Source of the DNA: an uncultured virus (IMG/VR IMGVR_UViG_3300009151_000002)
Taxonomy: Duplodnaviria; Heunggongvirae; Uroviricota; Caudoviricetes
Direction: 5' to 3' (one strand)
Length of the DNA stretch: 64,000 nt
Virus record (IMG/VR): IMGVR_UViG_3300009151_000002
The notes below the pieces were generated by a model, which saw only the letters and a program-made list of their open reading frames with translations, was not told the origin of the DNA and ran no database searches. Of this stretch, positions 12,443 to 58,774 are shown piece by piece (the stretch's first letter is position 1; each line of letters begins with the position of its first letter). The translations under genes were made by a program, and so were the position numbers.

Positions 12443-12740
12443 GAGCTTCAAATCCTTCATCTCCTGGTTGTAATACTTCTTTCTCTTGAAATTGTTTCTG
12501 AACTACTGCTTGAGCTTCAATTTCAGCAACTAATAAAGTTACAGTTTGCATAGCTTTTTGATCATCATCAAGTTCAACATATGTTTTAACACCTATTTCT
12601 TTAAGATATTCTTCAGATTTTTTATCTTGAATCATTTTATTCAAAAGAATATAGGCTAAGTTTTTAACCATTATGTAATAACCTTTACTTACAGGTACTT
12701 GAACAATGGCATCATCTTTCATTTCTTTAACTTTAATCAT
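12429..12740 (-). CDS. Hypothetical protein (lone minus-strand gene)
   Basis: 103-aa ORF with protein-like composition filling a gap in the + strand block. Confidence 0.75.
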   Translation of the reverse strand: MIKVKEMKDDAIVQVPVSKGYYIMVKNLAYILLNKMIQDKKSEEYLKEIGVKTYVELDDDQKAMQTVTLLVAEIEAQAVVQKQFQEKEVLQPGDEGFEAPTEG

Positions 12741-12772
12741 GTTAGCTTAGTTTAAATTACAATTGTAAAATT

Positions 12773-18703: not shown

Positions 18704-18733
18704 AAATATGTTAGGAATGTAGTATATTATTTG

Positions 18734-18741
18734 TATATTTG
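18734..18741 (+). promoter_or_regulatory. Bacteroidota-type -7 promoter element
   Basis: TATATTTG 4 nt before the ATG at 18746, implying a leaderless or near-leaderless mRNA. Confidence 0.55.
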
Positions 18742-18745
18742 TTCT

Positions 18746-20352: not shown

Positions 20353-20770
20353 TACAAATTCTGATTTCAAGTTAAACAAAGAAGAGTGTAAGAATCTGAT
20401 TGCAATGATTAAATCTAGTGATGAAAGTAATCATGAAATGGCTAAAACAGTATTAGAAAGTCTAGATATGGAAGATAATATTGAATGGGCTTTTATTATT
20501 ATTTCATTTGCTGGTAAGAGTGAAAAATTCTGGATGCATAATAATTTCTATACTGAGCTTACAAAAAGATTTGGTAGTTTTCTACATACTTCTTTAGACA
20601 ACAGAAGTGTGAGCTTAACACTTTTAAATAGTGTTCTTCCTTTTGGTGGTACTGATAATGAAATGTATATAGAGTTGTATTTAGAATTATACATTTCTGA
20701 AATGAAAAACACTCTGATTAAGTTTGGTTATGATGTTAAAGGTGACTTAGAAATAAAAAAGAAAGTATGA
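20345..20770 (+). CDS. Hypothetical protein
   Basis: 141 aa; contains LIAMIKSSDESNHEMA. Confidence 0.75.
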   Translation: MENTNSDFKLNKEECKNLIAMIKSSDESNHEMAKTVLESLDMEDNIEWAFIIISFAGKSEKFWMHNNFYTELTKRFGSFLHTSLDNRSVSLTLLNSVLPFGGTDNEMYIELYLELYISEMKNTLIKFGYDVKGDLEIKKKV

Positions 20771-37100: not shown

Positions 37101-37898
37101 GTCATCTATATTATCTACATTAAAATATGTAAAAGGAGGAAACTTATCACTTGTTAAAAAATCTACTAACTTTTTTGTACTTTCATTTGATACTGCATTA
37201 TACTGGTCTTGTAAATCTTTTAAATAAAGTGTATCTTCAACATTGATGTCTCTTTGAGATAGTAATTTTAATTGTTCATTTGCTATATCAACAGCAATTT
37301 TAATAACATATTGAAGAGATGTGTCAAAGTTTTTTGCAAAAAAGAAACCTTGTTTTGCTGATTCAGCTCCAGTAAATTGACCTAATTTAGTTTTATCAAA
37401 CTTATCAAATTTTTCTTTACTACCATGATAAACAATATCTTTTACTTTACTATCAGGAAATATAGTTTTTATATACTCAGTATATTGTTGTGGTGTACCT
37501 ATTTTAGCTAATTCAGGATTAGAATTAAATAATTCTTGTACATTATTATTATAATCTTCTTTTGGTACAATAGCATTATCAGCTATTGCCTGTCTTTGAT
37601 CATATCTAACTTTGAGTTCTTGAAGTTTTTCAAACAAAGGCTCATTGGGCTCCGCTCTGTTTATAGTAACAATACTATCTCTTCTATATGTAGAAGTTCT
37701 ATCATCTTTTAGTTTTATCTCAGTATCCTGAAAAAGTAATTCTCCATTTGTTTCTAAGCCATACTTGTCTACAGCAAGTTTAGTAAGACTCTCATTGAGC
37801 TCACTAAACTTTGCTGTATCAATTATTCTTCTTACATCATTAGTTGCTTTTTGTTTTTCTAAATACTTGATAGAATTTACTTTTACTTCACAAACCAT
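31176..37898 (-). CDS. Giant virion ejection/polyvalent protein (ART-like, zincin and LysM domains)
   Basis: 2240 aa; DIVYHGS...GFFFA...DGAIF...YTVFEPEQI; HEFSH at 36465-36479; LysM near 32030-32165; hydrophobic C-terminal segments. Confidence 0.85.
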   Translation of the reverse strand: MVCEVKVNSIKYLEKQKATNDVRRIIDTAKFSELNESLTKLAVDKYGLETNGELLFQDTEIKLKDDRTSTYRRDSIVTINRAEPNEPLFEKLQELKVRYDQRQAIADNAIVPKEDYNNNVQELFNSNPELAKIGTPQQYTEYIKTIFPDSKVKDIVYHGSKEKFDKFDKTKLGQFTGAESAKQGFFFAKNFDTSLQYVIKIAVDIANEQLKLLSQRDINVEDTLYLKDLQDQYNAVSNESTKKLVDFLTSDKFPPFTYFNVDNIDDLKNQIIKIVSEFDGNVNEYISEFDSIIKDVMNYVRGMVINITNPITYDFNQTEKYQTREISFNTLLKNKTTEDGAIFENVYDPLLDTIYTVFEPEQIHILGSNDDIEGFKQFVKGISKQAMFIRTDNNIPIIPIDLNTINQQASKAVAEAIASKLAAKLGINYHNLSPEQATEMLKNNPVPYRGEPAFFYNGAIFIVGDNVRPGILLHEFSHPLLQGIRKTNPQLFNNLYNQLSKTDEGLSIMAYVKKAYPELDVNSDLFKEEVLAFAMQLKSMNKLENKVETEGFQSFMTKLLASLKQLLREIFGNGVNLKNLNESTSLDELAEMLLDDTMFDFEEVNLTEDDLVMYVRDIFTEADKLTSSASANVLQEIVNEFYARNLQIVNQIKDFKSDKVTREMLEKALKKQNTTNLLPGVDEILKGYQNINNLNVILNEDLEDLEKTKQMAAALINSVDRINTSSNNIIKELNNINKQPSLINNRNTIALLGLYKNTSESWLNVIDQINELLDETEIDKNSEFYSLITSIVNNATIINSKIAQIYKKGGIQFFVEITGYMNEFVNKELKSNLGIALKKAFSESELETAVDELYRKVVEQKFTPEDAKALHDKGVPANILDEFIKKYNNYIVNEDKIKDALTGHAKDVSWFNRWLESYSSSNDVIVGPLSMFIQNQKTEVETKVWRMSQDFRAQLEILLPQVNFSKMNPTQIRDMVAEKDQIFYFNKKTGDYESRDVFTFLNEFGNGWRFELDKLEFLYEEAKKSGEKDKIAKALDELRQFNKDYMWQEYTLEYYEKDDIFKDSEIGALAYSARRSALENYINLQNSLQKEYERFEKHSELQEAFKTYQRLYSLQNEDGTEKVDDPAKGIYDKSIAELLIKHRQETNKFYEWVPITNSLDTAYNEFVSELLTKDVKKDSKEYDKLLREWQKQNVRIVYSQEYYDERTRLFERLNAIQSQINEQLKTDYNVSDEYKKILDLLYTFKDDFGQPDATQLGEERLRKIKDIQQNIIDVRQKLDKYTGLSREDSATLQELIIKSRDEELTDEEAEELDRLLTAKKDVDVTLVEALSEVIGELSDISSKYPTDYYMDALETHMSKYDNIPVFTDVTVDQFINGKLFQELIDPESDLYDADLFDWFELSHVKLQVYEDGVLVPKYQRTAANSYSKPTNPKHFINTKIKDNLTGEVISLIGVPNIRHSRREVKNEYRTIPRGGVRKDYVGKVIDNKGNFLPRSFDPSSKNSAKDGKYISEKFKKIKSNPNSPEYKLLELMKNYHLQLQEGASSYGKLYLDLPRYGIERGDYYQVLQKGEYGERFKEVRDNVKEWLKQTFGKSVQDNLDQFNYNPENNLVNTDLQGNEISYIPVTGIYNLDAKNVDADVFNSLFKYGLSVQTQSALIKSLPLVNSIMETLEDPANQPKKLDSFSKGIYNLRKKQQHPTRSNAMNNRAGQVRSLIEREYHGRQAVGIEENHPVLSKWLTALTSRSSRAALALNIPSDIKNQVSGYIQTIIEASGNRYISGRDLALSATWTTKAMLEWTTKGIYEIGPGAVSTQLVQVFDPNFKATDENGKPVYRSLYKDLINGEWMYMHRKFGEMEVAMRLFGSFLHAEKIEQNYSDGSKSLINYSDAWEKDDNGILKLKEGIHPGWNYESTYHIFNKGEKLADIAKKYNVTVEELKAKNSIKSEIQLEDGQEIVIAKSEYFKQFKNKLQGTSRALFGVYDKFGQPEGNKYIMYRMFFFMRKWFTPMFANRFGMDVSKENFGGSRYDWAMGRTTKGFYVEAFQALTKILKSKGADYQYLNDEQKGAMKKAATEGLIVIASGLIASMLFGFDDDDPDKWKKIKAKSGALFTDEFNTYGYISNHALLLLLGVQAETGAFIPLPSIQGFNFGADDYAKILTSTTTAFGNTLLTYIEIFGDVLNLITLNDDAVRYKKNVGPYWWQKKGELKTYKRIFTMLGLTGGIGDPETSLKNLSKGATRIR

Positions 37899-37900
37899 TT

Positions 37901-40900
37901 TTATACACAGTTAAAAGGATCAGATTCAAAACCTAGTGATGCAAGAATTTCATCATCTGAGATACCTTGTTTATTACTTAATATTTCTGTTATGTCTTTA
38001 TACATTGTAGAACCTGGATTTAAATACCCTAGTTCTTCAAACAATCTCTTACTTAAATATACAAATAATTCTTTAGGCATTTTCTTAGCATCACCTATTC
38101 CTGCTTTAGGAAGTGCAATTTTGTTACCTAAGTCTTTAGCATTTTTAAGCTCCTGAATTTTTCTATCAAAATAGTTTTTCACACTTTGATATTTATCAGC
38201 TGCTAAGTTACTAAAGTTATCAAAATTATTAGTCAAACTTGTAACAAAAGGTAAGGCGGTATCTTTGGATACTAATCTTAAATAACCTTGTCCAGGAAGA
38301 TCTTTATTATTATCTATTTCAAACTTGGTTGCATTATAAACAAAACCTACTGTAGAGTTAGTACTGGTTAATTTTTTGTAGAAAGCAGCACTGTCATCTT
38401 TAGAATCATCAAAAATAAATATGTTTGGATCTGATGTTGTAATAAGATCATTAGTTTGTTCTTCTACAGTTTCAGTAGCTGGTTGAGTAGTAGTAATACC
38501 TAACTCAAGTTTAATAGCATTATTTAATAAAACTGTTGTTTTAGAGTCTATAAATTGCTTTAAATCTAATAATTTAGCTTTGTAAGCATCTGTACCAGGT
38601 TTTAAACCAGCATTTTTAAACAATTCTAAAAACAAAATACTTGGTTGATCAATTAATGATTTTGTTGTTTTAGGTATAAACTCATACCCTTTTTTAATTT
38701 CACCAGGTCTAAATTCTATTTCTTGATTAAATAAAGAATCATTTTTAAATCTTTCAATAAATAAATCTCTAGAATTATTAATGTTGTTTAAATATTGTTT
38801 ATACAATTTAAGAGCTTCTGTATTAGTAAATATATCTGATAAATCAGGTATTTTTATATAATCATTTGTATCTGCATTTTTTGTAAGCAGTAATGCATTT
38901 TTTAATCTAAATAATCTTGTTTCTTCTTTTGTTTTAGGAATACTAGGTATTTTATAGGTATCCCTTAATTTTAAAAACAAATCATCAAGCTCTTTATTTT
39001 TATATTTTAAAACACCTGCTGAGTTAAAAGTATAGTAATTATTAACATTAGCTTCAACACTAGTAGATGGTTGAGTAGATTCTACTCTAGATTCTATTTT
39101 GTCAAAGTTGATATCTGTAAAATAGTTTTTGAATCTGTTTTTCTCTTTATTATAATAACTATTTTGAGCATTAAACTTATTATAAAAATCTTCTAATAGT
39201 CTAAATGCTTTACCTGGATCAGCCAAAAGTTTAGTAAAATCTTCAACAGCACCATCCATGATATTTAAGAATGGTGTTGTACTTACATAAGGAACTAAAT
39301 TAGCACTAGTTTTATTGATACCAGATTGCATGTATGCAAACAAAGGTAACCTAGAGAATAAATCTGATATGTATGTAATCTCTTGATCACTTAAACTTAA
39401 ATCTTTTGCTAATGTTTTTAATACAACTGGGTCAGCTAAATCAGTTAAGTTTTTAGTATAGATGTTAGCTTTGATATTATCAATATCTCTGTCAATTAAC
39501 TCAAGATTAAACATAGTGTCACTTGTGTTATTGTTAAGTTGTAATTTAGATAGTATATCAAATCTATTAGCAAGTTTTGGATTGGATGTGATAACATCAT
39601 ACACTCTTATAGCAAAAGCATTTTTAGGATCCCTGAACATATGATTTACATTGAAAGTATTATCAAGTGCTCTGTTTGCTAAAAACTCTTCATACTCTGT
39701 TTTTTCCATTTCTGTTTCAGCAATTGGATATACAGATCTTAAATACTCTCTTTCCATTACAAATCTTGCATAAGCTTTTGCGTCATTACCTTTTGCAATT
39801 GTAAATGTATTTGCAGGAAGCGGATGGAAACCTAACTGTGAATAATAGTTTGGTTCTTCTGTTTTATTACTCCATTCTTTAGAGTTGTATTCTTCTTGTA
39901 AATTTTTAAGATTGTAGAATAAAGTTTTAGTACCATCTTTATTTGTTTTTACAAAAGCTCCAAAGTTATCAGAAAGCATTTCTTTAACAGGAATTTCTCT
40001 TGCCTCATAAGACATGTAACCTTTTTTAAGATCTGTTTTAACTATAGCATTTTGGAAAATATATGTAACTAGATCATTTCTAAAAGTGTTTAGATAATTA
40101 TCTCTACCATCTTCTCCAAATGTTGTTTTAATGTTTTCCATTAACTCATTAGAATCATCTTTACTTTTTATAAAAGTACGGATTGCTGGGTTGTATCTTA
40201 ACTTAAATAATGGAGCAGCTAATGACAATGCTAGTTTGTTATTAAAGAAAGAACTAATAATAGAATCTCCCATTAAAGCAGAAATAATTGGTTGTAACTC
40301 AGCATTACCTTCTAAGTTCTCTAATCTTCCTTCAGATGTTTCAATGTCAGATAATACAGACTTAGTGTTTGTATCTGGATTAGCATTCATTTTAATCTGT
40401 GTGATACCTTTAATCTGGTCTTCAATATCTAAGTAATGTAAGAACATAGTTAAAGATAAGTCAGAAGATTTAGCACTGAGTGTATTTTTAGATTCTCTAA
40501 TCAAACCTAACATTTCTTTTTCAGTAAAGTTTTTGCTTTTTCTGTCTTTCATATAGTTATTAAACATCTCACGTCCTACTTCAAATCTAGTAATAGATTT
40601 ACCTTTAGCTGGTAAAACTTTAGGATTGAAATATTTATCTACAATATTTGTAGCGGCTTGATATTTAACAAATGACTTTTGCTCAGGAGCTTTACCTAAT
40701 ACTTCAGCAAAAGTAGATTTAGCAAGACGTTGCTCATCTACATATTCTCTTACTAAAGGTTGAGACACAAAATAAATAGCTTCTTTTACTGGTACGCCAG
40801 CTTTTACTAAATATAACAATATAGGAGCAACTTCATAGTTACCCTGGATAAAGAAAATCCATGCATCTTTTTCAACATCCACCCAGCCATTCATTGCTTG

Positions 40901-43900
40901 GGAGAATATATCTGCTATTTTATTTGTGTTATCTACATCATATAAGTTAGACAAAGAAATTCTTTCTTTACCATTAACTATTCTTACATTATGTCTTAAA
41001 CCAATATTAGTACTTCTTGATTCACCTTTGTAATTAGTATATGTCTCCGGCATTAAGGCCCCAATAGAGTTTAATAATACATTCATTGTATTCTCTACAG
41101 CACCTAATCCTAATGTTTTCTTACTAACAATATTAGATCCATGTTTATATAAGTTATAAAGAGGCTCTAATACTCTTGTTGCACTGATAATTTTCTTACC
41201 TTCTTCAGGTTCTGTTGTTGTATCAGTCATGTAATTTTTGAATGGATCATATTCCATTACATCTCTAGCTAAGTCTTCAGCTATATCTTTTAATAAGAAA
41301 GTACCATTTGGTGTAATAAGTGATACAAAGTTTTGCGGAAGCTCAAGTATTTCTTTGATGTCATTCATCAAATCATTTTCAACACCAGCTTTTTGTTGTT
41401 TAAAAACTTTTGTTATTGATTCTTCTTTGTTCTCTTTGATGTTCTGTAGAGAAGCTTTCAACTCCTCTGTGTTTTTATAGGTTCTTTCTTTAAGCTTACC
41501 ATCCGTGTCTATGTTAGTCATGAAGATTGTAAGTTTATCAATATCAAAGTCACCCCCGGACTTAGCAACTATCTCAGCTGGAGGAATAATAATATTACCT
41601 GCTTGTGGAGGTAAGAATTCATATACTTCCATGAACTCCATAGAGTTTAGACCCTGAACCGGAATCCTAACCCCTACAAGAGTTATTGCTTTTCTGTTAG
41701 CACCATTATTTGCATCTAACCATACATCATCTTTAATAGCTTGGTTTAATCTTTCTATAGTACCAATGGTTTCTCCATTATACTCAAGATTCAACAAGTT
41801 AGCATAGTCCCCCTGTAATGCAATCATAACCTTCATTGCTGCGGTTTTACCATCCGCCATCTTGTGATAAGTAGGAAGTAAGTTACTACCTATCCATTTT
41901 TTCTTATCTGCATCAGTAGCATTTCTAAAGTTAGGAGACTCTGTAAGGTTATTCTCATAAAAAGCAGAAGACACTTGTACAAGCGGTTCACCTTTTACTT
42001 TTTGTTTGATAACTCTTTTATTGATCAGAGATAGTAAAAGTTTCTCAATTTTTAATGCTTCTGGGTGTAATGACAAGTCATGTAATAACTCACCACTATC
42101 TAATGCATCAATAAAGTTGATCATCTCATCACTATAAGACTCCTCATTCTCTAAGTTATTTCTAACAAGAGATAATAATTTACCAATGCTTTCTTTGTCT
42201 CTTGGTTTATAACCACCGTCAGGTGTTTCATCAAAACCAATTTCTTCTAATAACTCTAATTTAACTAACTTAGTATAATCAGCTACATTGTCAAGATATC
42301 TTTTTACTAATGGTGATACCACATCTTCTTCATTTGGAGAATTGATCGCACCATTTTCATATAAGTTATCTAAAATTAACTTTCTCATCTGAGTAGAGAA
42401 TATAGATTTACCTTTAAACTCAGAGTTAACTTCTGTTTGGTTCTTTAGGAACTCTGTGAAAATTACATTTTTAGTAAATGGGACATCTTTAATAATACTA
42501 CCATCTTTAGCAATTATATCATCTCCATTACCAAGGTGACCAACTTTTGAACCTGATTCAAAAAGCACATAGTCCATGTTTTCAGCTATCATTTTCTCAT
42601 TCAAATCATAAAGAGGTGTACCTTTTTTAGCAACACCTGGTATAATTGGAGCAAGAGAGAATTTATGGAAAGATACAAGTGGTAAACCTGTTGTTTCTAT
42701 AGCACCACAATATTGTAACTTATAAGGTGGGAAGTAATGAATTATATCTTCTACTGATACTTCTTCTCCTTTAGCTAGTTTTTTATATAACTCTTCTTGT
42801 TCTGGTAACCAGTTACCTTCAAGTTCTTTTAAAATTCTATATGTTTCAAAACTGATGTGTCCTTGACCATCACCAATCTTCATTTTTGTATATTCTTTTA
42901 AAGCTGTTTTTGCTAAGTCTTCTGCCTTAGCTTTATAACCAAATCTTTTTGTGTATTCTTTTACAAGAGCATCATAGTATTCATCATAGTAAACAGATTT
43001 GTCTATAACTCTTTCTCTAATGATACCTGTAGTTAGAGTACCGTCAAATGGTTTTTTATTAGGCTCAAATAACTTAGTCATTTGATTAATAAAACTTCTT
43101 GATTTTAAATCAGAAGCAAACCCTAAACCACCTCCACCAAAACCAGCATTACGCTTATGGAATTCTTCTTTAGCATGATTGTATAATGCTAAATCTCCAT
43201 AACCAAGAATACTTGTCTCAAATTTATGTATCCATGAATTATAAGCATATGCTTTCATTAATGTTGTGTCAGACTCATCTACAGTAAGTTCAACACCTTT
43301 ATTTTCTATACGGGATCTTAATGTTGGGTCAATAAACTTAGTTTTATTAAGTCTATCTGTTAAGTCTTTTGTTAATTCATTAAAATACTTAGCTACATCT
43401 TTTCTAATTTCTAATGCAAGAGTAGTGTCTTCTTCATAAATATCTGAAAAATCAAAGTCAGTATTTTTAGTTGCAATTGCTTTATCTACTATAGCATAGA
43501 TTTTTTTCTGAGTATCTTTTGATAATACATCTTCAAATGCTGCAAGTGCTTGACCGGACATAACAATCTCACCTGTTTTTCTTTTTACGGGTCTTGTATA
43601 ACCTGTAAATTCAGAATATTTATCTACATCAGAACCAAATCTAAAAATTCTATTTACTTCACCAGCTAAGTATCCAGATAAAATATCAAATGAATAATCT
43701 TCACCAGAATTAGTTGTAGGTAAAAACTTCTCTATGTCAACATATAAATTCTTAGCAGCTTTATTACCATAAGTATTGATACCATTTTTCATTACAATGC
43801 CTTGTGACATTTGTTTAGAAGCATGTCTCATGAACTCTTCTACACCATTCATCAACATAGTATGTATCTCTTGTAAATACTTACTTGTAGCATCCATTGA

Positions 43901-46900
43901 TGCTGTAGAGATACCTGTTGATTTATCAGTATTTTTATCAATCAATTGTGTTCCAGCTACATTTTGAATAACAAGTTTGTTATCTTTTTTACCACCTGGA
44001 TTAGTTACATCAGATAGACTGTTAAACAATGATTTTAAAAGTACTGAATGTTCAGTGTAAGTATTGTTGTCATATGCTAAGTATCTCATATGTCTGAACA
44101 AACCATTTGGATCTGCTTCAGGATTTGTTAATTGTTGCCATGAGTCAGCATGGTTTAAAGAAGTCATTATTCTTGTAAAAGTATTATCCAAGAAATGCTC
44201 CCATACTCTATTTCCTTCAGGACTAATTGCACTAAAGTTAGAATACTTATCAGAAAATCTTACTTGGATATTAGCAAGCTCCTTGATTCTTGAAGAAGAG
44301 TCAAAAGCTTTACCTTTATCTAATGAACTAGGTAATGAAGATTTTAAATACTCAATTGGATCTTTAAGAAATTTAGCTTTCTCAGGATCATTTACATTAT
44401 TAATATGCTCAAGAGTGTCATAAATATGCTTGATTCCAAACTTATTAATGAAATTTGGGTCCGCTAACACACTAGCAATTGTTGGATTACTAGTATCCAT
44501 TATGAGCCCTAAAGCATTTAAGAATGACACAACATTTTTAGGATTCAAGTTATTCTTGAAATCTTTAACTAATCCATTTAAGTCAAGTACTTTATTTTCT
44601 GAAATGTATTTAGATTTAGATATAGTCTTAAAATTGATCTGCCAGTCTCTTAAAACTTTGCTTCTATCAAAGTCTGTTCTTTGAAGCCTTGCTTCTGCAA
44701 GAGTTTCTTTTTGACCTTTTTGGATATTTAAGTTTAACTGTACATATGACAATCTTGGTTTTTTAAGATCCTGCCAGAATTTAGTTTCAATAGTAAATTC
44801 ACTTTTGTCAGCATAATCTTTTTCTGTTCCATCAGCATTCTTACTTCTGTCTGGTAAGTAAGATAACAACTGTAAAAATTCAGGGTTATCAATTACACCA
44901 TCTGCAAGTCTTTTATACATTTCCTCCTTATCAAAAGAACCAGCTGTAACTTTTGCAACCTTGCTCCACATTTCTCTCTCATCTAATAACACAGGAAGAC
45001 CTGTTTGAGGATCTATTTCATACTCAACATTTAATTTTTTTGTACCATCATCATTGGTGGTAATAGTAAATTTATTTCTATCTATTTTGTATATACTAGA
45101 TAGAATAGTTTTAGTTTCTTGACTGGCAGCTTCTCTTGAAGAGAAAATATTACCACCATCAAGCCTAACAATTCTAGAGTTATCAATATCAGTTGGATCT
45201 TCTTCTAACTCAATAAATTTATTTGCTAATATTTTAAATTTAGAATTTTGTAAATGGAAAGCTACAACACCTTTTTGGTCTTTACTGTCAATAGTTTGCT
45301 TAATATCTCCAAAATTATCTAGTAGTTTAGCTAAGAATGGCAATTGTGCTAAGTCTTCAGGTTCAATATCCTCACCTTCAGCAGCCCTAGTTGCAAGATT
45401 TGCTCTTACAGCATCTAACTTTTCAGATAGTTTCTTTTCTAATAACTGATAAAGGAATTCTCTATTGGTATTAGTTTGTAAAACTTTCACTGGTCCTGAT
45501 GTTACACCAAACTTTTTATTGTAAGCATCAAAAACTTGTGGGATCATGCTATCTAAATAGTTTACAATTTTTAGTGATTCAGCAGAATCAAAAGGTTCAT
45601 ATTTAGTAGCTACATCTTTTACTGAAGTAATAGCTTTAGCTCTGTTTAATTGAGTAAACATCATGTTATCTGTAGAAGGTTGCATGTTTTGCAATAACTC
45701 CGGTCTTTCAGATGCATAATATAACTTATCAAACAATTCTTTTACAGATGCAATATCTCTTGGTCTTGTAGCTAATTCTTGGTTACTTACTTTACCAAAG
45801 AGGTTCTGTAGGAACTGGTACATTCTTCTGAATACTGTTTCCAAAAATCCTTTAGGAGCTTCTTTTTTACCTTTGCTTCTAGCATAATCTCTAAAATCCT
45901 CAGCAATATCTTCTTCTATTTCAAAGTAAGATTTATTGGCCCATTTTGGTTGGCCCTTTAATTCTTCATATAATCTAATCTTTTCAGCTTTTGTTAAGAA
46001 TAATTGAGAGAATCCGTGCCATGCTTCATGGTATAAATCCACAGCAGTACCACCATCACCTTCATAAAGTGTAATACCTGTTCCTGTAAATGTTGCAAAT
46101 GCATTTGAGTTAACAACTTTAGTAATTCTTTCAAGACTTATATATTTACTCAAAGGGTTGTTAGCCCACCAATCTTCTGCTTCTGCTTTGTCAGCTTCAG
46201 TAGTAAATACTTGATCTAAAATATCTAAATCTTTGCTTCTATTAAAACCAGTAAGCTCATCTGGTGTAATATTTACACTAGGGTTACTTGCTACATTAAG
46301 ACTAATAAGATCCGGATCAATTATCTCTTCAATTTCTTCTATGGTCTCAACTTTTTTAGTAGCTCTTTTCTTTTGAACAACTTTAGCTTTTTCTTTAACT
46401 ACAGTTTCAGCAGTAGTATTTTTTTGAACTTGAGTTGTTTTCTTAACTGGACGCTGAGTTTGTGTATCTACTGCAACTGGAAAGAATGCAGAATCATCTT
46501 CTGTAAATTCATCAGGAACAGCATATGCTAAATAAGGATTGAATCCTGCAACACTCTTTGCAGACTCAGCTTCATATTGCAAGTATGCAAATGGTAAAAC
46601 TACAGTTTCAATATAGTTTTTTTCAACCGGTGTAATCTTATTACCTGATATTTCATAATCAGTATAAGTCTTATCAACACCCATGTATTTAGCAGTAAGA
46701 TTTACATTTGCTCCAATGAAACCTTTATCACCAAACTTAATTGCTTGAGGTAAGTGTTGAGCAATTTTATCTCTTACAGCAGTAGTAAAAATTTCATCTC
46801 CTTCAAACTTCTCATTATTGATAGTTAAAGTAAGAGGTCCACGAGTAGCTTTTTCTAAAAAAATGTTATTTTCATTTTTAACCCCCTTTGCACTTACTCT

Positions 46901-48298
46901 TTGATTATTTAAAAATACTTTAAAGTATTCAATTCTTTTATCATCTGAAAGAGGAAGTCCTTTATTAGTAGCTTTACTTGTAATAACATCAGCCACTTTA
47001 TCAGCAAGTGCTTGATTAAAGTTACCTCTTTGAACATTCACTGGCATTTCAATTTCACCAAGAGCTTCTGTATTCTTCTTGATATAAAATTGATAAAATC
47101 CTTTATTTCTATCTCTACCTTTAGTAGATACAAGTTTAACTTCTTTAATATCTTCTTTAGTAAGTTTAATTGTTTTATTTAACTCTGCATTGATTTGATC
47201 AGCTTTTGCTTTACTAACTATACCAAAACTACCACCAGTGATTTGAGTAATATATGAAGCATTGTTATCTATAACATCCTTACGCATGTTATATACACCA
47301 TTCATTGCTTTTGTTTGTTCTTTAAGAACGGTACCAGATGCTAAACCTAATCTTTCAGCAATCTTACTAGCAGCAACTAAGGTGTTCTTATACATCTTAC
47401 CAGCTTTATGATAAATTGTGTAGAAAGCAGGTTTATTTTTGTTAAATGTATCTTCTAACAAATAAGGTTTTCTTATAAACTGATAAACAACAATACCATT
47501 TTCTTCATCAGTTATGTTACCATTCTTATCAAAATATATATAATTACCATCAGCATCAGTAATAACTGCAAGAACTCCTCTATATGATTTTGCAGTTTCA
47601 GATTTATCTTTAGATAGTTTATATTTATCCTCAAGACTTTCTGAAGGCATCATTTTTAAAAACACTTCTGTATCATCAATCATTGGATTGTCTTGCTCAG
47701 CAGGTTTTTCTTTGACACTCTTTACAATTTTTTTAATTACTGTTTCAAAAACTTTTTTGTCTTCTGATGTTACATCCTCTTCTTCCTGTGTTTCTTTTTT
47801 AGAAGGATCTTTTTGGTCAGCAAACTGAAATGTTGTGACATTAGGAAACTCAATTTTTGCTTTGTCTCTTGCTTTTTCTAATTCTGAATTCTCAGGATCA
47901 GTAATTTCTAAGTTATCTAATTGAAAGTTTTGATGTTCTAATTCATCTTTTACTTCTTTCTTAGATTTTCTTCTTACAGATTTTGTAACAAGCTTTTTTA
48001 CATTTTCTAAATTCTCAAAACTTTTTTTTATCTTGATTAACTTGTTAAAATCAAAATCTGAATCTAATAGCTTATTGCTTATATCTGATCTATTACTTTG
48101 ACAAACATTGATCACATAAGGTATGATTTGTGCATACTGTAAAGCCTTTTCTTCACCAGCAGCTTTTTCAATCCTAGTGTAAATATCTTTTGTAAATGCC
48201 TCAAAATCAAAACTTTCTGATGGTTTAAGATCAGAAAGTGTTTTGTAAGTTATTTTATATAAGTCTGAAATCTGAGTTTCATTAAGTGAACAAATCAT
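37901..48298 (-). CDS. Virion-packaged DNA-dependent RNA polymerase (crAss-like, two-barrel)
   Basis: 3465 aa; GDGQG, STQMRK, RIPVQG and KSGGDFDIDKL (DFDID at 41537-41551); zincin HEAWH at 46016-46030. Confidence 0.92.
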   Translation of the reverse strand: MICSLNETQISDLYKITYKTLSDLKPSESFDFEAFTKDIYTRIEKAAGEEKALQYAQIIPYVINVCQSNRSDISNKLLDSDFDFNKLIKIKKSFENLENVKKLVTKSVRRKSKKEVKDELEHQNFQLDNLEITDPENSELEKARDKAKIEFPNVTTFQFADQKDPSKKETQEEEDVTSEDKKVFETVIKKIVKSVKEKPAEQDNPMIDDTEVFLKMMPSESLEDKYKLSKDKSETAKSYRGVLAVITDADGNYIYFDKNGNITDEENGIVVYQFIRKPYLLEDTFNKNKPAFYTIYHKAGKMYKNTLVAASKIAERLGLASGTVLKEQTKAMNGVYNMRKDVIDNNASYITQITGGSFGIVSKAKADQINAELNKTIKLTKEDIKEVKLVSTKGRDRNKGFYQFYIKKNTEALGEIEMPVNVQRGNFNQALADKVADVITSKATNKGLPLSDDKRIEYFKVFLNNQRVSAKGVKNENNIFLEKATRGPLTLTINNEKFEGDEIFTTAVRDKIAQHLPQAIKFGDKGFIGANVNLTAKYMGVDKTYTDYEISGNKITPVEKNYIETVVLPFAYLQYEAESAKSVAGFNPYLAYAVPDEFTEDDSAFFPVAVDTQTQRPVKKTTQVQKNTTAETVVKEKAKVVQKKRATKKVETIEEIEEIIDPDLISLNVASNPSVNITPDELTGFNRSKDLDILDQVFTTEADKAEAEDWWANNPLSKYISLERITKVVNSNAFATFTGTGITLYEGDGGTAVDLYHEAWHGFSQLFLTKAEKIRLYEELKGQPKWANKSYFEIEEDIAEDFRDYARSKGKKEAPKGFLETVFRRMYQFLQNLFGKVSNQELATRPRDIASVKELFDKLYYASERPELLQNMQPSTDNMMFTQLNRAKAITSVKDVATKYEPFDSAESLKIVNYLDSMIPQVFDAYNKKFGVTSGPVKVLQTNTNREFLYQLLEKKLSEKLDAVRANLATRAAEGEDIEPEDLAQLPFLAKLLDNFGDIKQTIDSKDQKGVVAFHLQNSKFKILANKFIELEEDPTDIDNSRIVRLDGGNIFSSREAASQETKTILSSIYKIDRNKFTITTNDDGTKKLNVEYEIDPQTGLPVLLDEREMWSKVAKVTAGSFDKEEMYKRLADGVIDNPEFLQLLSYLPDRSKNADGTEKDYADKSEFTIETKFWQDLKKPRLSYVQLNLNIQKGQKETLAEARLQRTDFDRSKVLRDWQINFKTISKSKYISENKVLDLNGLVKDFKNNLNPKNVVSFLNALGLIMDTSNPTIASVLADPNFINKFGIKHIYDTLEHINNVNDPEKAKFLKDPIEYLKSSLPSSLDKGKAFDSSSRIKELANIQVRFSDKYSNFSAISPEGNRVWEHFLDNTFTRIMTSLNHADSWQQLTNPEADPNGLFRHMRYLAYDNNTYTEHSVLLKSLFNSLSDVTNPGGKKDNKLVIQNVAGTQLIDKNTDKSTGISTASMDATSKYLQEIHTMLMNGVEEFMRHASKQMSQGIVMKNGINTYGNKAAKNLYVDIEKFLPTTNSGEDYSFDILSGYLAGEVNRIFRFGSDVDKYSEFTGYTRPVKRKTGEIVMSGQALAAFEDVLSKDTQKKIYAIVDKAIATKNTDFDFSDIYEEDTTLALEIRKDVAKYFNELTKDLTDRLNKTKFIDPTLRSRIENKGVELTVDESDTTLMKAYAYNSWIHKFETSILGYGDLALYNHAKEEFHKRNAGFGGGGLGFASDLKSRSFINQMTKLFEPNKKPFDGTLTTGIIRERVIDKSVYYDEYYDALVKEYTKRFGYKAKAEDLAKTALKEYTKMKIGDGQGHISFETYRILKELEGNWLPEQEELYKKLAKGEEVSVEDIIHYFPPYKLQYCGAIETTGLPLVSFHKFSLAPIIPGVAKKGTPLYDLNEKMIAENMDYVLFESGSKVGHLGNGDDIIAKDGSIIKDVPFTKNVIFTEFLKNQTEVNSEFKGKSIFSTQMRKLILDNLYENGAINSPNEEDVVSPLVKRYLDNVADYTKLVKLELLEEIGFDETPDGGYKPRDKESIGKLLSLVRNNLENEESYSDEMINFIDALDSGELLHDLSLHPEALKIEKLLLSLINKRVIKQKVKGEPLVQVSSAFYENNLTESPNFRNATDADKKKWIGSNLLPTYHKMADGKTAAMKVMIALQGDYANLLNLEYNGETIGTIERLNQAIKDDVWLDANNGANRKAITLVGVRIPVQGLNSMEFMEVYEFLPPQAGNIIIPPAEIVAKSGGDFDIDKLTIFMTNIDTDGKLKERTYKNTEELKASLQNIKENKEESITKVFKQQKAGVENDLMNDIKEILELPQNFVSLITPNGTFLLKDIAEDLARDVMEYDPFKNYMTDTTTEPEEGKKIISATRVLEPLYNLYKHGSNIVSKKTLGLGAVENTMNVLLNSIGALMPETYTNYKGESRSTNIGLRHNVRIVNGKERISLSNLYDVDNTNKIADIFSQAMNGWVDVEKDAWIFFIQGNYEVAPILLYLVKAGVPVKEAIYFVSQPLVREYVDEQRLAKSTFAEVLGKAPEQKSFVKYQAATNIVDKYFNPKVLPAKGKSITRFEVGREMFNNYMKDRKSKNFTEKEMLGLIRESKNTLSAKSSDLSLTMFLHYLDIEDQIKGITQIKMNANPDTNTKSVLSDIETSEGRLENLEGNAELQPIISALMGDSIISSFFNNKLALSLAAPLFKLRYNPAIRTFIKSKDDSNELMENIKTTFGEDGRDNYLNTFRNDLVTYIFQNAIVKTDLKKGYMSYEAREIPVKEMLSDNFGAFVKTNKDGTKTLFYNLKNLQEEYNSKEWSNKTEEPNYYSQLGFHPLPANTFTIAKGNDAKAYARFVMEREYLRSVYPIAETEMEKTEYEEFLANRALDNTFNVNHMFRDPKNAFAIRVYDVITSNPKLANRFDILSKLQLNNNTSDTMFNLELIDRDIDNIKANIYTKNLTDLADPVVLKTLAKDLSLSDQEITYISDLFSRLPLFAYMQSGINKTSANLVPYVSTTPFLNIMDGAVEDFTKLLADPGKAFRLLEDFYNKFNAQNSYYNKEKNRFKNYFTDINFDKIESRVESTQPSTSVEANVNNYYTFNSAGVLKYKNKELDDLFLKLRDTYKIPSIPKTKEETRLFRLKNALLLTKNADTNDYIKIPDLSDIFTNTEALKLYKQYLNNINNSRDLFIERFKNDSLFNQEIEFRPGEIKKGYEFIPKTTKSLIDQPSILFLELFKNAGLKPGTDAYKAKLLDLKQFIDSKTTVLLNNAIKLELGITTTQPATETVEEQTNDLITTSDPNIFIFDDSKDDSAAFYKKLTSTNSTVGFVYNATKFEIDNNKDLPGQGYLRLVSKDTALPFVTSLTNNFDNFSNLAADKYQSVKNYFDRKIQELKNAKDLGNKIALPKAGIGDAKKMPKELFVYLSKRLFEELGYLNPGSTMYKDITEILSNKQGISDDEILASLGFESDPFNCV

Positions 48299-48299
48299 A

Positions 48300-51200
48300 T
48301 TAACAAGTTTTTGAATTATCTTCTAAGTTTTTGAATAAGTCATCTTTGGATGAATCATCTGCTTCTTTTTCATTTCTCTCTAAAAAATCTTTATTAGTAA
48401 GATTTTCAGAAGCATCAGTTTTAGTTTGTTCTGAGGCATCAACAGTTTCTTGAGAAGGTTTTACAGTTTCGGGCATTACAGTTTCATTAGTAGGTTTAAC
48501 AAAATTATTTTCAAGCTCATCTTCAGTTACTTCTTGAGTAACATCTCCGTACTTTAATATAACAGAATTTTTGTTAACTTTTACTATTTGTACAGGAGAA
48601 TCTTGATTTGTAAAGTTACCAATATCTTGTAATATATCACCCTTTTTCAATGAAGCAATGTTCACTTTTTCTTTTAATTCAAGAGATCTGTTTTCAAAAG
48701 CAATCTCAATTTTATCAAGAGTTAATTTATTATTTTTTCTATTTTTAATTAACTCTATCTTTTTAAGATGTAATGCTTCTAAGTCAGTAATATCAGCAAA
48801 AGCTTCAGTTGCTACATTAATACCGGATTCTTCTGGTAATAAATTATCAAGTTCTTCTGAGGAAGAATTGACTATTTTTTTGAGTTCAGAGATTGAAATT
48901 TCTTTCTCTTGTCCTCCGCTTGTTTCTCCAGAAACAGTCTTTGTTTGTCCTCTGGTAGGGCTTTGAATCTCAGGTACACTAGTCCCGGATTGTACTTCTG
49001 ACTCTGGTCCGAAGATTTCATTGAGTTCTTGTTCATATGGTTGTTCTTTAGCAATTCTGTTTTTAGCAGTTAAGTTAATTAAATTTAATTGATTGGTTAA
49101 TTCATTTAATGCATTAATTTGTCTGTCAACAGCATCAAATCCTAAAGCATCATTTTCCACCATTAACATATTTTGATATGCTAACAGGTTCACTATTGTT
49201 TCATCAATCCAATTTTTAATTTTAGCAAGCTCTTTACCCTTTCCTTTAAATTCTGATATACCTTTTGCAAACAATACATTTAACTCTTCAGGGAAGTTTT
49301 TCTCTAAGATAGTATCTAGTTCTTTTTCTACTTTAGGAGAAGCCTCGGAGAAAGAAGCTATTTGCTTTAATTCTTTTTGTGTATCAGCTGCGGTTTTACT
49401 TGCTCTGTTTTTTTGGAACTGGTTAGGTAATCTGTTTAATGCAAATATTACATCATTGCTGTTACCACCTAATACAAATACTTTATCATCAGTAGATAAT
49501 TTATTTCTTTCTTCCTGTAGTTCTTTTATTCTAGCTTGAGCTTTACCTATTCTTCTAATAAATGATGCTTGAGAAAGTGTATTGATTGTTTGTTTAAGTT
49601 TTTTAATTTTATTACTTATTCCAACAAAGTCAGAACCATCATTTCTTTTTTGTTTTTCCAAATTTGCAATTTCATCATTAAGACTTTCAATCTCTGTCTT
49701 AGCAGCTTGCATTCTTTGTCTTTCAGAATTTACCTTTTTTGTTAAAGCAGAAATTGATTGATCAAGTTCATCTCTTTTTGCATCATTCTTAAAATAAACA
49801 AGTTGAGTTATCTCACCTAAAGCATTTCTTCCTACAGTATATCTTACTCCATTTACAATTGCAATGTTTTCATTACTATTTTCAAACTTAGCATCTATAA
49901 CAGTCCCTTTGATAATAGAAATTTGACCAATGTTTTCAATTGGTGTTATTAAAGCTAAACCTGCATTAATTAATTCAACACTACCATCAGTAATATTTTT
50001 ATTTTTTGAAAGAAGAGGATATATTTCTTTACCTTTTTGAGTCTTTTGTAAGTCCTCAATTTTTTTCTTGATTTCAGCAGCTAATTTAGGATCTCCAAAT
50101 TCCCCTTCAGCAAGAGCCAAATCAGCCTTTAGTCCTGTTTCTTCATTTCCTATTAAAGCTTCAGACATAGATTGTTCAAAACCTAAATCAACTTCTACAC
50201 CATAGGTTCCATCATCTTGTAAAATTAAAGTACCAATCTTACCATTGTAAATCACTTGCTTACCTACATTATCTTTAAGTAATACTTTAGATGTATCAGA
50301 AGCATTTATTTGTAAACTTGGTTCAACTTTTACACCTTCTTCACCCGAAGTTTCTATCTCTGCAGCAATTGCTGGTGTAGACAAAGTTATACCTTCAGCT
50401 TCTACATCTGGTAAGTATTCAAGTTCAAGTGTATTAAATAACTTAGCTGTGTTTGGAACTAATGGTTCTAATGGTTTATCTTTATATTTTTCACCACCAA
50501 CAGTTACTTCAGTAACATATGAAGAAGCATTCTTATCCAATCTAATTCTCATTGGGAATAATGCAATCTTTGGAGTAACACCTGTCATATTATGATACAA
50601 GTTTCTATAAATAGAAAGCTGAGCTCTATATGCAACATTCTTCCAGCTGGTTGGATTATTAAAACTATTCCAAGATACAGATGTTTTAAAGTCTACAATC
50701 ATGATCTCACCTTTAGTATTAATCAATACTAAATCTGTTTCACCAGAAACACCATTTTCTAATAAACTTTTGTCAAATAGTTTAACATTATTAGTAAGTG
50801 GTAAATAACCTTTTGTATCTAAATCAGCTCTAAATCTTGTAACAATTCCTCTTTCACCAAACATTTGATTAAAAGCAGATTCACTCATGATGTCTGAAAT
50901 TTTAGTTTCTTTACCGTCAATTTCTACACTGTCACTATATTTAAATGAAGCCCAGGTACCTGTAGCAGCATCAATAGTAAAGAACATTTTTGTAGCAGCA
51001 TCTAGATTAGTACCAGCTTGAGCATTATTTGAAAATGATTCTTTTTCAATTAATTTTTTAAAGTTTTCTTCTGTTGTATCTTTTTCTAATGCAGCTCTAA
51101 TTCTAGCTTTCTTTTGCTCATTATTAAACTGTTTATAGTTTGTTCTTGCAAGTTCAGTAAATAGTTTCCATGCTTTATCAAATGCATCAACATCACCTTT

Positions 51201-58600: not shown

Positions 58601-58774
58601 ATCTCTAGTAACATCTTGATAGTATAATTGTCCATATAGATTATTTAATTGCTTATAATTCTTATCATACTGATTTTGCTTTGTTTGCAAAACATTATTA
58701 TAAAAATTATAGTCAGGCTGAAATGGTTGAAAATCAGGAATATAATCTGTTACACCTTGTATATATGTTGCCAT
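55652..58774 (-). CDS. Virion cargo/ejection protein
   Basis: 1040 aa, helical; N-terminal FQPFQPDYNFY; position next to the giant genes. Confidence 0.75.
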   Translation of the reverse strand: MATYIQGVTDYIPDFQPFQPDYNFYNNVLQTKQNQYDKNYKQLNNLYGQLYYQDVTRDSSTKMKDDYLKNIDYELKRVSGLDLSLEQNVEQAKQIFRPVYENKNLMKDMALTKNYKDEKSRALALASSKNKEDRGAYWDVGIKDMDYRLEEFKNAAEADVLSFGNIMYTPNVNATQQYMDLAKKYNLSVDITQPDKSGMYMVRQKNGDLIIPTLQKMFYADYINDPALQKKYATEAYVRRKDESKARASKYGNNEILAEKEFLKEQFLFLKDYTKEKTKQAEEAVSASTNQKNNVEQDISNGEVNPFQPAYLQKIAQAIEVDEIVYKHNKDLSQELDPSGNTYTGENTITSVEGLNLDNLEQARYDVDRLHASYLAERDIMSAADAYSRNDMIYKQEISPLGLETVRHQHAMERDQENNRRADLRASAKIQAASDDALNKWKLDNGFAEIDPETGKVVNVKAGAQEEESGDGGEGGQTEDRSVNSIKYNRKVLNEHVDKLSSEYIDTWVNTIKNGIDGKEIYANDLAYLFGTDRAGGQKIWDKIKNEYDNGADGRQKLVRDLTLNAKIFDYKKRMDAWALKHNAGGTGLKYNKTSSISSYKLDQMKTFYSMHLQIKKENENRIASSLSTKLEARGIEDKALRYTIIDQYLKKYVTGKAWEDDEFNDMLENTLDSYEKRTGKQVKTPGFFSRTGQLIANIPNMIGASVSPNPTNMYKAGKAIKNFSNGDLLGDMNETYEDIVYSPDHKLGLLSYLPSIKSTAGGKTSLGATPTSVNVNLGRKDDNLIYFNQFLNDVRKINFNQADKNSYRVSLKGNQYDPDAEIDINLNNKLKNMLFDLSTMSKNKSQKGNPTIFKLIQSQIGAENSDLGAMKVKNIPNEVIEKYFDKKADAQIISDLQTNGVTYIAPASSWKNSLFQSNKVTPTEAVLNTGKKIQYIDPVYGHKLILDRDNVTGNYRYTTTIRAVDDNGEYYELKESSIAQPFGKQIDGKLSEIMKSFADANEILSDDFKKYHGSNNEKTVKSFQDKFGRVPKDSGYKIL

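What the first reader, a model, noticed from the sequence alone, without database searches (positions are those of the whole stretch)
37880..48320. Matched terminal cysteines on the three giant ejection proteins: a possible head-to-tail linked injection chain
Seen: the 2449-aa protein ends ...SKTC*. The next gene (vRNAP) starts MICS... and ends ...FNCV*. The next starts MVCE.... By eye these ~8,100 residues hold only about 7 Cys, and 4 of them sit within 3 residues of a terminus. They occur only at the two junctions between consecutive genes, which are 1-2 nt apart; the two outer termini have no Cys. Inference: C-terminal/N-terminal Cys pairs form disulfide or metal bridges that chain the proteins in gene order for ordered packaging and ejection, with release in the reducing cytoplasm.
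Basis: partly seen in the sequence, partly recalled or inferred. Interest (0 to 1): 0.8.

Follow-up and report, generated by a model that had tools for sequence, protein, structure and literature searches.

The report
Terminal cysteines chain crAss cargo proteins
Three giant proteins that this crAss-like phage carries in its particle, with its RNA polymerase in the middle, have almost no cysteine except one at each end that faces the next protein, a rule kept across relatives, which suggests but does not prove that disulfide bonds tie them end to end into one thread for injection.

Summary
Three consecutive minus-strand genes (2449, 3465 and 2240 aa) hold 7 Cys in 8154 residues. Four of these sit 1-3 residues from the termini at the two gene junctions.

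This is not chance (P about 1e-10), and it is conserved. In 66 related viral contigs (46 clusters at 90% identity), 124 junctions inside the series carry a Cys on both sides. 68 other adjacent junctions carry none, and no adjacent junction carries one only. Only 24 of 274 Cys are internal.

Extra gene splits bring an extra pair, and fused forms have none. Cellulophaga phage phi14:2 and Bacteroides phage crAss001 show the same pattern, the latter with one gene on the other strand.

A complex model docks the C-terminal part of A on the N-terminal part of B (ipSAE 0.83, best control 0.00). A cryo-EM paper on cyanopodophage A4 shows a real disulfide at the same sequence pattern.

Best reading: head-to-tail disulfides make one cargo thread. 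The chemistry and the function are untested here. The scan found the same thing before on other genomes.

The parts
48300..55649 (-). Protein A, 2449 aa, first link. Cys 968 is internal and Cys 2449 is the last residue. Family related to crAss001 gp47.
   Evidence: profile hit to crAss001 gp47 at E 1.8e-26
48303..48305 (-). Codon of A Cys2449 (TGT), directly before the stop codon
   Evidence: It is the only invariant column in the last 300 residues of 35 A-type proteins.
37901..48298 (-). Protein B, 3465 aa, middle link: virion RNA polymerase protein with Cys 3 and Cys 3464 (internal Cys 66 and 1864)
   Evidence: profile hit to PDB 6vr4_A at E 1.8e-29; hits to phi14:2 gp077 at 1.5e-35 and crAss001 gp50 at 3.5e-22
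48290..48292 (-). Codon of B Cys3
   Evidence: invariant in 13 of 13 sequences of alignment A1
37907..37909 (-). Codon of B Cys3464, second residue from the C-terminus
   Evidence: nearly invariant in A1
31176..37898 (-). Protein C, 2240 aa, last link. Its sole Cys is at position 3. It has an HEFSH motif, a LysM domain at 1917-1956 and one hydrophobic segment at 2070-2090. Family related to crAss001 gp49.
   Evidence: profile hits to crAss001 gp49 at 6.9e-71 and phi14:2 gp076 at 9.4e-41
37890..37892 (-). Codon of C Cys3
   Evidence: invariant in 13 of 13 sequences of alignment A4
48303..48467 (-). A residues 2395-2449: the predicted docking surface on B
   Evidence: interface residues 246-300 of the last 300 residues of A
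47996..48298 (-). B residues 1-101: the predicted docking surface for the C-terminal end of A
   Evidence: interface residues 1-23, 39-70 and 95-101
41534..41557 (-). GGDFDIDK catalytic-type motif of the RNA polymerase (B residues 2248-2255)
   Evidence: invariant columns G2248, D2250, F2251, D2252, D2254 and K2255
46016..46030 (-). HEAWH motif (B residues 757-761), zincin-like HExxH
   Evidence: invariant H757, E758, W760 and H761
55652..58774 (-). Upstream neighbour, 1040 aa, with no Cys at all. It is not a link: its junction with A has no Cys on either side.
   Evidence: the same in relatives

Best explanation
A, B (the virion RNA polymerase) and C are internal cargo proteins of a crAss-like phage. 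Almost all Cys have been purged from them, as in other injected phage proteins. One Cys is kept at every terminus that faces the next protein in the series.

Proposed mechanism:
1. The C-terminal end of each protein docks on the N-terminal end of the next (predicted for A-B).
2. The two thiols, brought together in this way, oxidise to a disulfide in the assembled or released particle.
3. The three proteins thereby form one unbranched head-to-tail thread of 8154 residues, about 0.9 MDa by my arithmetic.
4. The thread keeps a 1:1:1 ratio and its order while it passes, partly unfolded, through the narrow tail.
5. The links are reduced in the host cytoplasm and the polymerase is set free.

Shown here: the Cys pattern, its conservation, its coupling to gene fission and fusion, and a predicted A-B interface that contains both Cys. 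Taken from a paper: a real disulfide at the same sequence pattern in cyanopodophage A4. Inferred: the bond in this phage, the threading role and the reductive release.
For: (1) Pattern in the window: 4 of 7 Cys lie at the four junction termini, P = 9.4e-11.

(2) Relatives: 66 loci at 30-95% identity to B, which form 46, 33 and 15 clusters at 90, 70 and 50% identity. Among all adjacent same-strand junctions of ORFs of at least 150 aa, 124 have a Cys on both sides (last 10 and first 8 residues), 0 have one only and 68 have none. Of 274 Cys in 448,204 residues, 250 are terminal and 24 internal. 0 of 59 complete last-member C-termini carry a Cys.

(3) Both codons are used (TGT 206, TGC 44), so selection acts on the residue.

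(4) Fission and fusion. In L021, L024 and L041-L044 an extra ORF of 242-655 aa lies between B and the last protein. It has exactly two Cys, at position 3 and at the last residue. In L023, L025, L026, L028, L030, L033, L055 and L061 its C-terminal domain is fused to B, and that B has Cys only at its two ends.

(5) Named phages. phi14:2: gp078 Cys [1797 of 1797], gp077 [3, 2179 of 2180], gp076 [3]. crAss001: gp47 [2339 of 2341], gp50 [5, 1334, 2404 of 2412], gp49 [5], with gp47 on the opposite strand. Orthology to A, B and C was shown by profile searches. 12 further crAss-like records keep at least one pair.

(6) The terminal Cys is the only invariant column in the last 300 residues of 35 A-type proteins, whose mean column identity is 20%.

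(7) Complex model of B 1-330 with the last 180 residues of A: ipSAE 0.83, 0.83 and 0.84 in three runs; best of 3 controls 0.00; partner pLDDT at least 73; runs agree in at least 64% of contacts. This mark was reached by 116 of 157 solved complexes and 2 of 215 mismatched pairs, and these counts hold only roughly with my own alignments. The interface includes B 1-16 and A 2441-2449, so both Cys lie in it.

(8) Precedent. Passages of PMC12002296 describe a cryo-EM disulfide between Cys1715 of gp27 and Cys5 of gp26 in phage A4, with the C-terminal helix of gp27 inserted in gp26. In the A-4L record these are the only Cys of a 1717-aa and a 1114-aa protein encoded by consecutive genes.

(9) Passages of PMC10172136: crAss001 virions contain disulfides in the tail and portal vertex. 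gp47, gp49 and gp50 are in the virion by mass spectrometry, and they must partly unfold to pass the tail.
Against: - No experiment shows a disulfide between these proteins in any crAss-like phage.
- The complex tool gives no S-S distance. By the contact register (B9-A296, B12-A293, B16-A289 in the numbering of the last 300 residues of A) the two Cys are about two residues out of register. Closeness is therefore my inference.
- Only the A-B junction was modelled, not B-C.
- The window's proteins keep three internal Cys (A 968; B 66 and 1864) that could mispair.
- Gut crAss phages keep 2-13 internal Cys in these proteins.
- Hosts of gut crAss phages live without oxygen, so it is not explained when the bond would form.
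- No thioredoxin-like or glutaredoxin-like gene was found in the window or in the nearest held record, which is only 60% complete.
- One junction in IAS virus (gp055/gp056) lacks the N-terminal Cys as annotated, next to ambiguous bases.
- crAss002 fits only if the start of gp33 is moved to Met33.
- In A4 the authors describe the bond as a stabiliser of a pentameric ring, not as a tow-line.
Confidence: 0.6

Rival explanations
1. The same inter-protein disulfides exist, but they only staple a folded cargo complex (a pre-ejectosome-like body) inside the capsid for stability. The proteins separate before or during ejection and are not pulled through as one thread.
For: In A4 the gp27-gp26 bond is described as stabilising the outer ring of the pre-ejectosome. 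The predicted A-B interface is large, with 175-207 contacts, as in a stable complex.
Against: A staple could sit anywhere on an interface. Here every one of 124 pairs lies within 10 residues of a chain end, and pairs vanish where chains are fused. That fits a need for linear continuity. Reduction inside an intact particle before ejection has no obvious source.
Confidence: 0.2
2. The paired terminal Cys bind a metal ion between the two proteins instead of forming a disulfide.
For: Acidic residues often sit next to the C-terminal Cys (LNDLDC, NLEICE, TSTDCQ) and could complete a metal site.
Against: There is only one Cys per terminus. No second conserved ligand exists: the Cys is the only invariant column in the last 300 residues of A. 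The one solved example of the pattern is a disulfide.
Confidence: 0.07
3. Each terminal Cys bonds to some other virion part (portal, capsid inner face, another cargo protein) or has a non-covalent packing role. The pairing across junctions is only apparent.
For: crAss001 uses several disulfides between tail and portal-vertex proteins. The neighbours of the cargo in the capsid are not resolved.
Against: The counts match exactly: the first protein has a Cys only at its C-terminus, middle ones at both ends, the last only at its N-terminus. There are 0 one-sided junctions among the 192 adjacent junctions. New pairs arise together at new splits. The two termini are predicted to touch each other.
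Confidence: 0.06
4. The TGT codons belong to a nucleotide signal at tightly packed gene junctions (translational coupling), or the pattern is chance.
For: The junctions are 1-2 nt apart and all four codons in the window are TGT.
Against: In crAss001 and IAS virus the A-type gene lies on the other strand, away from its partner, yet keeps its C-terminal Cys. TGC is used 44 times among the 250 terminal Cys. The offsets vary: 1-10 residues from the C-terminus and positions 3-7 from the N-terminus. 68 equally tight junctions nearby have no Cys. P is about 1e-10 in the window alone.
Confidence: 0.01

Closest known systems
Cyanopodophage A4 (Anabaena phage A-4L) ejection proteins gp27 and gp26: Cys1715-Cys5 disulfide in the pre-ejectosome (PNAS 2025, PMC12002296; passages read)
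   Same: Consecutive genes. The upstream protein's only Cys is 3 residues from its C-terminus (1715 of 1717), and the downstream protein's only Cys is at position 5. The C-terminal helix docks on the next protein. Both are internal proteins of a podophage.
   Different: No detectable sequence relation to A, B or C (E at least 0.03 among 4 targets). There is one link, not two or three, and no RNA polymerase in the series. The authors describe it as a ring stabiliser. No rule across a phage order and no link to gene fission or fusion has been described.
Cysteine suppression in injected proteins of N4-like phages (Schitoviridae gp71/gp72/gp73, N4 gp50; PMC11445570, passages read)
   Same: Giant virion RNA polymerase and neighbouring ejection proteins with Cys far below the proteome level. 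The paper gives 0.00075% against 0.865%. Here internal Cys is 0.0054% in 66 loci, against 1.40% in the window's other genes.
   Different: Those proteins have no Cys at all. Here exactly the junction termini keep one.
Crassvirales cargo trio: crAss001 gp47/gp50/gp49 (PMC10172136, passages read) and phi14:2 gp67/gp66/gp65 (bioRxiv 10.1101/2020.03.07.982082, section 8 and passages read)
   Same: Homologous proteins, the same order, and the RNA polymerase in the middle. They are present in virions by mass spectrometry, and the preprint says they are fused into one polyprotein in some phages.
   Different: Neither text mentions the terminal Cys. In the preprint the words cysteine and disulfide occur 0 times. 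In the Nature paper disulfides are described only for tail and portal-vertex proteins.

Membership tests
crAss-like virion RNA polymerase (phi14:2 gp66 type, PDB 6VR4) | Sequence relation to the solved enzyme | tested here: met
   Profile of 13 B-type proteins hits 6vr4_A at E 1.8e-29. The HMM hits phi14:2 gp077 at E 1.5e-35. A single-sequence phmmer search found nothing.
crAss-like virion RNA polymerase (phi14:2 gp66 type, PDB 6VR4) | DFDxD catalytic motif | tested here: met
   GGDFDIDK at B 2248-2255, with invariant columns in 13 of 13 sequences. The motif is named in the preprint abstract and section 8.
crAss-like virion RNA polymerase (phi14:2 gp66 type, PDB 6VR4) | Packaged in the virion and active after injection | not testable with these tools
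   Known for phi14:2 and crAss001 from the papers; no data for this phage.
Crassvirales cargo trio (crAss001 gp47/gp50/gp49) | Homology of all three proteins, in the same order | tested here: met
   A to gp47 at 1.8e-26, B to gp50 at 3.5e-22, C to gp49 at 6.9e-71. The profiles were built from the window plus 17 of the 66 loci.
Disulfide-linked ejection-protein pair of phage A4 (gp27-gp26) | Sole or nearly sole Cys at the C-terminus of the upstream protein and at the N-terminus of the downstream protein | tested here: met
Disulfide-linked ejection-protein pair of phage A4 (gp27-gp26) | The C-terminal end of the upstream protein docks on the downstream protein | tested here: met
   Prediction only, and for the A-B junction only: ipSAE 0.83 against a best control of 0.00.
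Disulfide-linked ejection-protein pair of phage A4 (gp27-gp26) | Disulfide seen in a structure or by chemistry | not testable with these tools
   Needs virions.
Disulfide-linked ejection-protein pair of phage A4 (gp27-gp26) | Sequence homology to gp27/gp26 | tested here: not met
   Best E 0.033 among 4 targets. It works like the A4 pair but is not a member of that protein family.
Cys-free ejection proteins (Schitoviridae type) | Cys far below the proteome frequency | tested here: met
   0.086% against 1.40% in the window
Cys-free ejection proteins (Schitoviridae type) | No conserved Cys at all | tested here: not met
   The terminal Cys are conserved at 124 junctions.
Split inteins / protein trans-splicing | Intein domains flanking the junction Cys | tested here: not met
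   No Pfam family on A or B; only LysM and a weak ART-PolyVal hit on C. The Cys of A is the last residue, which leaves no room for an N-intein.

The most novel reading that the evidence does not exclude
Across Crassvirales, and independently in at least one cyanopodophage, the injected cargo is delivered as one covalent, redox-cleavable thread. Wherever evolution cuts the ancestral polyprotein into separate genes, a Cys pair restores the continuity of the chain. The virion RNA polymerase is thus towed into the cell by its neighbour and released only on arrival in the reducing cytoplasm. This would be a general design rule for protein ejection through narrow phage tails.
Probability: 0.4. Interest if true: 0.85.

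Novelty: new variant of a known kind. Interest (0 to 1): 0.75.

Why it matters
How podophages move megadalton amounts of folded protein through a tail only 25-50 Å wide is an open question. For crAss-like phages, the most abundant viruses of the human gut, the location and ejection of the RNA polymerase cargo is unresolved (PMC10172136).

A head-to-tail disulfide chain would explain three things: the fixed stoichiometry and order of delivery, why these giant proteins are free of Cys elsewhere, and why the genes can be fused or split freely.

It is directly testable in two cultured systems, phi14:2 and crAss001, which show the same pattern. The tests are gels, thiol labelling and mass spectrometry.

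I found no paper that reports it for Crassvirales. The searches were made, in the held library only, which lacks most subscription journals. The scan itself has noted the same thing on other genomes.

Tried and rejected
- Megablast of 12 kb and tblastn of the C-terminal 1199 aa of B against the phage collection: no match. tblastn of the N-terminal 1766 aa gave only weak crAss hits around the HExxH region.
- Pfam and PHROGs gave nothing for A and B.
- Single-sequence PDB searches of A and B: nothing. Only the profile search worked.
- phmmer of the window proteins against named crAss proteins found nothing because of the bias filter. It was replaced by profile HMMs run with --max.
- BLAST did not relate the N-terminal half of the extra 242-aa protein to the fused forms or to the L018-type C protein. 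The exact fusion point is therefore not aligned; only the absence of any Cys in the fused stretch is shown.
- The search for related loci with the C-type alignment failed because it has no conserved stretch.
- The window's own assembly is not held. The nearest record has no thioredoxin or glutaredoxin match but is only 60% complete.
- p-crAssphage could not be fetched under two accession numbers.
- The Bohxovirus record was not evaluated because its annotation is fragmentary. For cr10_1 the gene after the giant lies beyond the record end.
- The supplements of PMC10172136 hold no text on gp47, gp49 or gp50, and one file could not be read.
- Explanations rejected: intein, lipoprotein and a nucleotide signal (see rivals and membership test).


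Full report
**What is in the window**

Window positions 31176-58774 on the minus strand carry four tightly packed large genes:
- a 1040-aa protein with no Cys;
- A (2449 aa);
- B (3465 aa);
- C (2240 aa).

A-B and B-C are 1 and 2 nt apart. A ends SKTC. B starts MICS and ends FNCV. C starts MVCE. The three proteins hold 7 Cys in 8154 residues. Four of them lie at the four termini that face a neighbour, and none lie at the two outer termini.

The 43 plus-strand ORFs of the replication module in the same window hold 1.40% Cys (124 of 8875 residues), so about 114 Cys would be expected. The depletion (P = 8.8e-40) and the placement (P = 9.4e-11) are both far beyond chance.

**What the proteins are**

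Pfam and PHROGs are silent on A and B. C has a LysM domain. The rest of the window is a phage replication module: family A DNA polymerase, primase, helicases and nucleases. Its polymerase is distantly related to that of Cellulophaga phage phi14:2, among others.

I built profile HMMs from the window plus 17 of the 66 related loci. They relate the window's proteins to named phages as follows:
- A to crAss001 gp47 (1.8e-26);
- B to phi14:2 gp077 (1.5e-35) and crAss001 gp50 (3.5e-22);
- C to crAss001 gp49 (6.9e-71) and phi14:2 gp076 (9.4e-41).

A profile of 13 B-type proteins hits the solved phi14:2 RNA polymerase, PDB 6vr4, at E 1.8e-29. The GDFDxDK motif and an HExxH motif are invariant.

So this is the cargo trio of a crAss-like phage with the virion RNA polymerase in the middle. 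The crAss001 paper reports the three proteins in virions by mass spectrometry and argues that they must partly unfold to pass the tail (passages). The phi14:2 preprint says the three are in virions and are fused into one polyprotein in some phages (section 8).

**Conservation in relatives**

The search for related loci with B returned 66 viral contig stretches, with 30-95% identity in the best segment. They form 46 clusters at 90% identity, 33 at 70% and 15 at 50%.

I took all same-strand ORFs of at least 150 aa and all junctions between neighbours less than 60 nt apart. I then asked whether a Cys lies in the last 10 residues of the upstream ORF and in the first 8 of the downstream ORF. The result:
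- 124 junctions have both;
- 0 have one only;
- 68 have neither.

The 124 are the junctions inside the A-B-(extra)-C series. The 68 are the equally tight junctions outside it, such as that between the Cys-free upstream protein and A (explains the few index shifts in truncated loci).

Rows outside this count:
- L041: the start of B is lost behind a 197-nt gap, while A still ends in Cys.
- L011, L016, L023, L061: an unrelated ORF starting MCYTYLIK lies 320-1851 nt downstream.
- L006: A is broken into two overlapping ORFs without Cys, most likely a frameshift in the assembly.

The series members total 448,204 residues with 250 terminal and only 24 internal Cys, which is 0.0054%. 0 of 59 complete last-member C-termini have a Cys. 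2 of 55 first-member N-termini do, and both are B proteins whose A is cut off by the locus end (L017, L049). TGT is used 206 times and TGC 44 times.

In an alignment of the last 300 residues of 35 A-type proteins (the window plus 34 of the 66 loci, one per 90% cluster with both ends present), the mean column identity is 20%. The terminal Cys is the only invariant column.

**A natural experiment**

In six loci a gap between B and the last protein predicted a further gene. It is there: an ORF of 242-261 aa (655 aa in L024) that starts MAC and ends in C, with exactly these two Cys. It gives four-link series.

Its C-terminal domain of about 150 residues is found fused to the end of B in L023, L025, L026, L028, L030, L033, L055 and L061, down to the same final ...IC. 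Those fused B proteins have no Cys between their two ends. The fusion point itself could not be aligned.

In gut Suoliviridae the RNA-polymerase region lies inside one giant protein of 4461-5443 aa. That protein has no N-terminal Cys, but it has a Cys within its last 4 residues, and the next protein has a Cys at position 3-6. The B profile aligns to residues 1721-3615 of the cr118_1 giant.

In crAss002 and in Leptolyngbya phage Lbo-JY46 the last two proteins appear fused and only one pair remains. For crAss002 this holds only if the start of gp33 is Met33 (M-S-C), not the annotated Met1.

**Named phages**

The pattern in the two cultured model phages:

| Phage | A-type | B-type | C-type |
|---|---|---|---|
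| phi14:2 | gp078: Cys [1797 of 1797] | gp077: [3, 2179 of 2180] | gp076: [3] |
| crAss001 | gp47: [2339 of 2341] | gp50: [5, 1334, 2404 of 2412] | gp49: [5] |

In crAss001 and IAS virus the A-type gene lies on the opposite strand from its partners and still ends in Cys. This excludes a signal of gene packing.

I fetched 16 crAss-like records, and 14 could be judged. 13 show at least one pair as annotated, and crAss002 does after the start is re-assigned. cr10_1 and the Bohxovirus record could not be judged. IAS virus has one unclear junction next to ambiguous bases.

**Do the ends meet?**

I gave the one complex job to the A-B junction: B residues 1-330 with the last 180 residues of A, each as a 35-row alignment. 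Results:
- ipSAE was 0.83, 0.83 and 0.84 in three runs, and the best of three controls was 0.00.
- Partner pLDDT was at least 73, and the runs agreed in at least 64% of contacts.
- The tool's mark was reached by 116 of 157 solved complexes and 2 of 215 mismatched pairs. These counts hold only roughly with my own alignments.
- The confident interface is B 1-23, 39-70 and 95-101 with A 2395-2449, so both Cys lie in it.

The best contacts (B9, B12, B16, B19 with A296, A293, A289 in the numbering of the last 300 residues) have the spacing of two antiparallel helices. This is my inference, and the tool gives no S-S distance. No complex of these proteins is in the PDB by sequence, so a pass from memory is unlikely.

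**Precedent**

In the A-4L record, gp27 has 1717 residues with its only Cys at 1715. gp26, the next gene, has 1114 residues with its only Cys at 5. These proteins show no sequence relation to A, B or C.

N4-like phages show the other half of the picture: their virion RNA polymerase and ejection proteins have essentially no Cys (passages of PMC11445570).

**Mechanism and its status**

The best-supported reading is this. The termini dock, and the juxtaposed thiols form disulfides in the particle. The cargo becomes one unbranched head-to-tail chain, and internal Cys are purged to avoid wrong bonds.

It is inference that the chain is threaded through the tail as a unit and cut by reduction in the cytoplasm. 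A pure stabilising staple is the main rival. A metal bridge, or bonds to other virion parts, are less likely. Chance and nucleotide signals are excluded.

Open points:
- when oxidation happens, above all for gut phages;
- the three internal Cys in this window;
- the unmodelled B-C junction.

**Novelty**

In the held library I found no report of this rule for crAss-like phages (searches). The two key crAss papers do not mention it. One disulfide of this kind has been published for A4.

I therefore rate it a new variant of a known kind. It is a multi-link series that includes the RNA polymerase, is conserved across a phage order, and tracks gene fission and fusion. The scan has reported the same rule on other genomes before. 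My counts here are independent of those notes.

Noticed in passing
window 7419-7697 (+): A 92-aa ORF matches the ClpS adaptor of the Clp protease (PF02617, E 4.5e-13, above the cut-off). This is a phage-encoded N-degron adaptor in the replication module.
   Followed up: no
window 957-1361 (+) and 5116-5508 (+): Two small ORFs are very rich in Cys (10 of 134 and 8 of 130 residues) and have no Pfam match. They contrast with the Cys-poor cargo genes.
   Followed up: no
window 31176-37898 (-), protein C: C carries a LysM domain (1917-1956, E 6.4e-5), an HEFSH zincin-like motif conserved in relatives, a weak ART-PolyVal hit below the cut-off (155-363, E 0.0016) and one hydrophobic segment (2070-2090).
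   Followed up: partly
window 55652-58774 (-) and 61650-63920 (-): The 1040-aa protein upstream of A and a 756-aa protein have no Cys at all. The counterparts of the 1040-aa protein in 50 of 52 related loci where it was listed also have none. They are likely further injected or internal proteins that are not links of the chain.
   Followed up: partly
L006 2791-9998: The A-type gene is broken into two ORFs of 1613 and 789 aa that overlap by 4 nt, with no Cys at the break. This is probably a frameshift or an assembly error, and it serves as a control for a false split.
   Followed up: no
L080 (crAss002) 4163-4270: The annotated start of gp33 is probably 32 codons too far upstream. Met33 is followed by Ser-Cys, which matches the N-terminal pattern of its relatives.
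   Followed up: partly
L011, L016, L023, L061, 320-1851 nt downstream of the last cargo gene: A conserved ORF of 210-236 aa starting MCYTYLIK recurs after the cargo block. Its function is unknown.
   Followed up: no
window 18263-18703, 18731-19594, 20767-22074 (+): Three endonuclease-type genes sit within the replication module: a GIY-YIG SegE-like gene (E 9.9e-21) and two with PHROG endonuclease/HNH hits. They suggest homing elements.
   Followed up: no
L079 (IAS virus) 5019-14001: The B-type region is annotated as two genes (gp055 and gp056) that overlap by 11 nt, next to ambiguous bases. gp055 has Cys at both ends, but gp056 as annotated has no N-terminal Cys.
   Followed up: no
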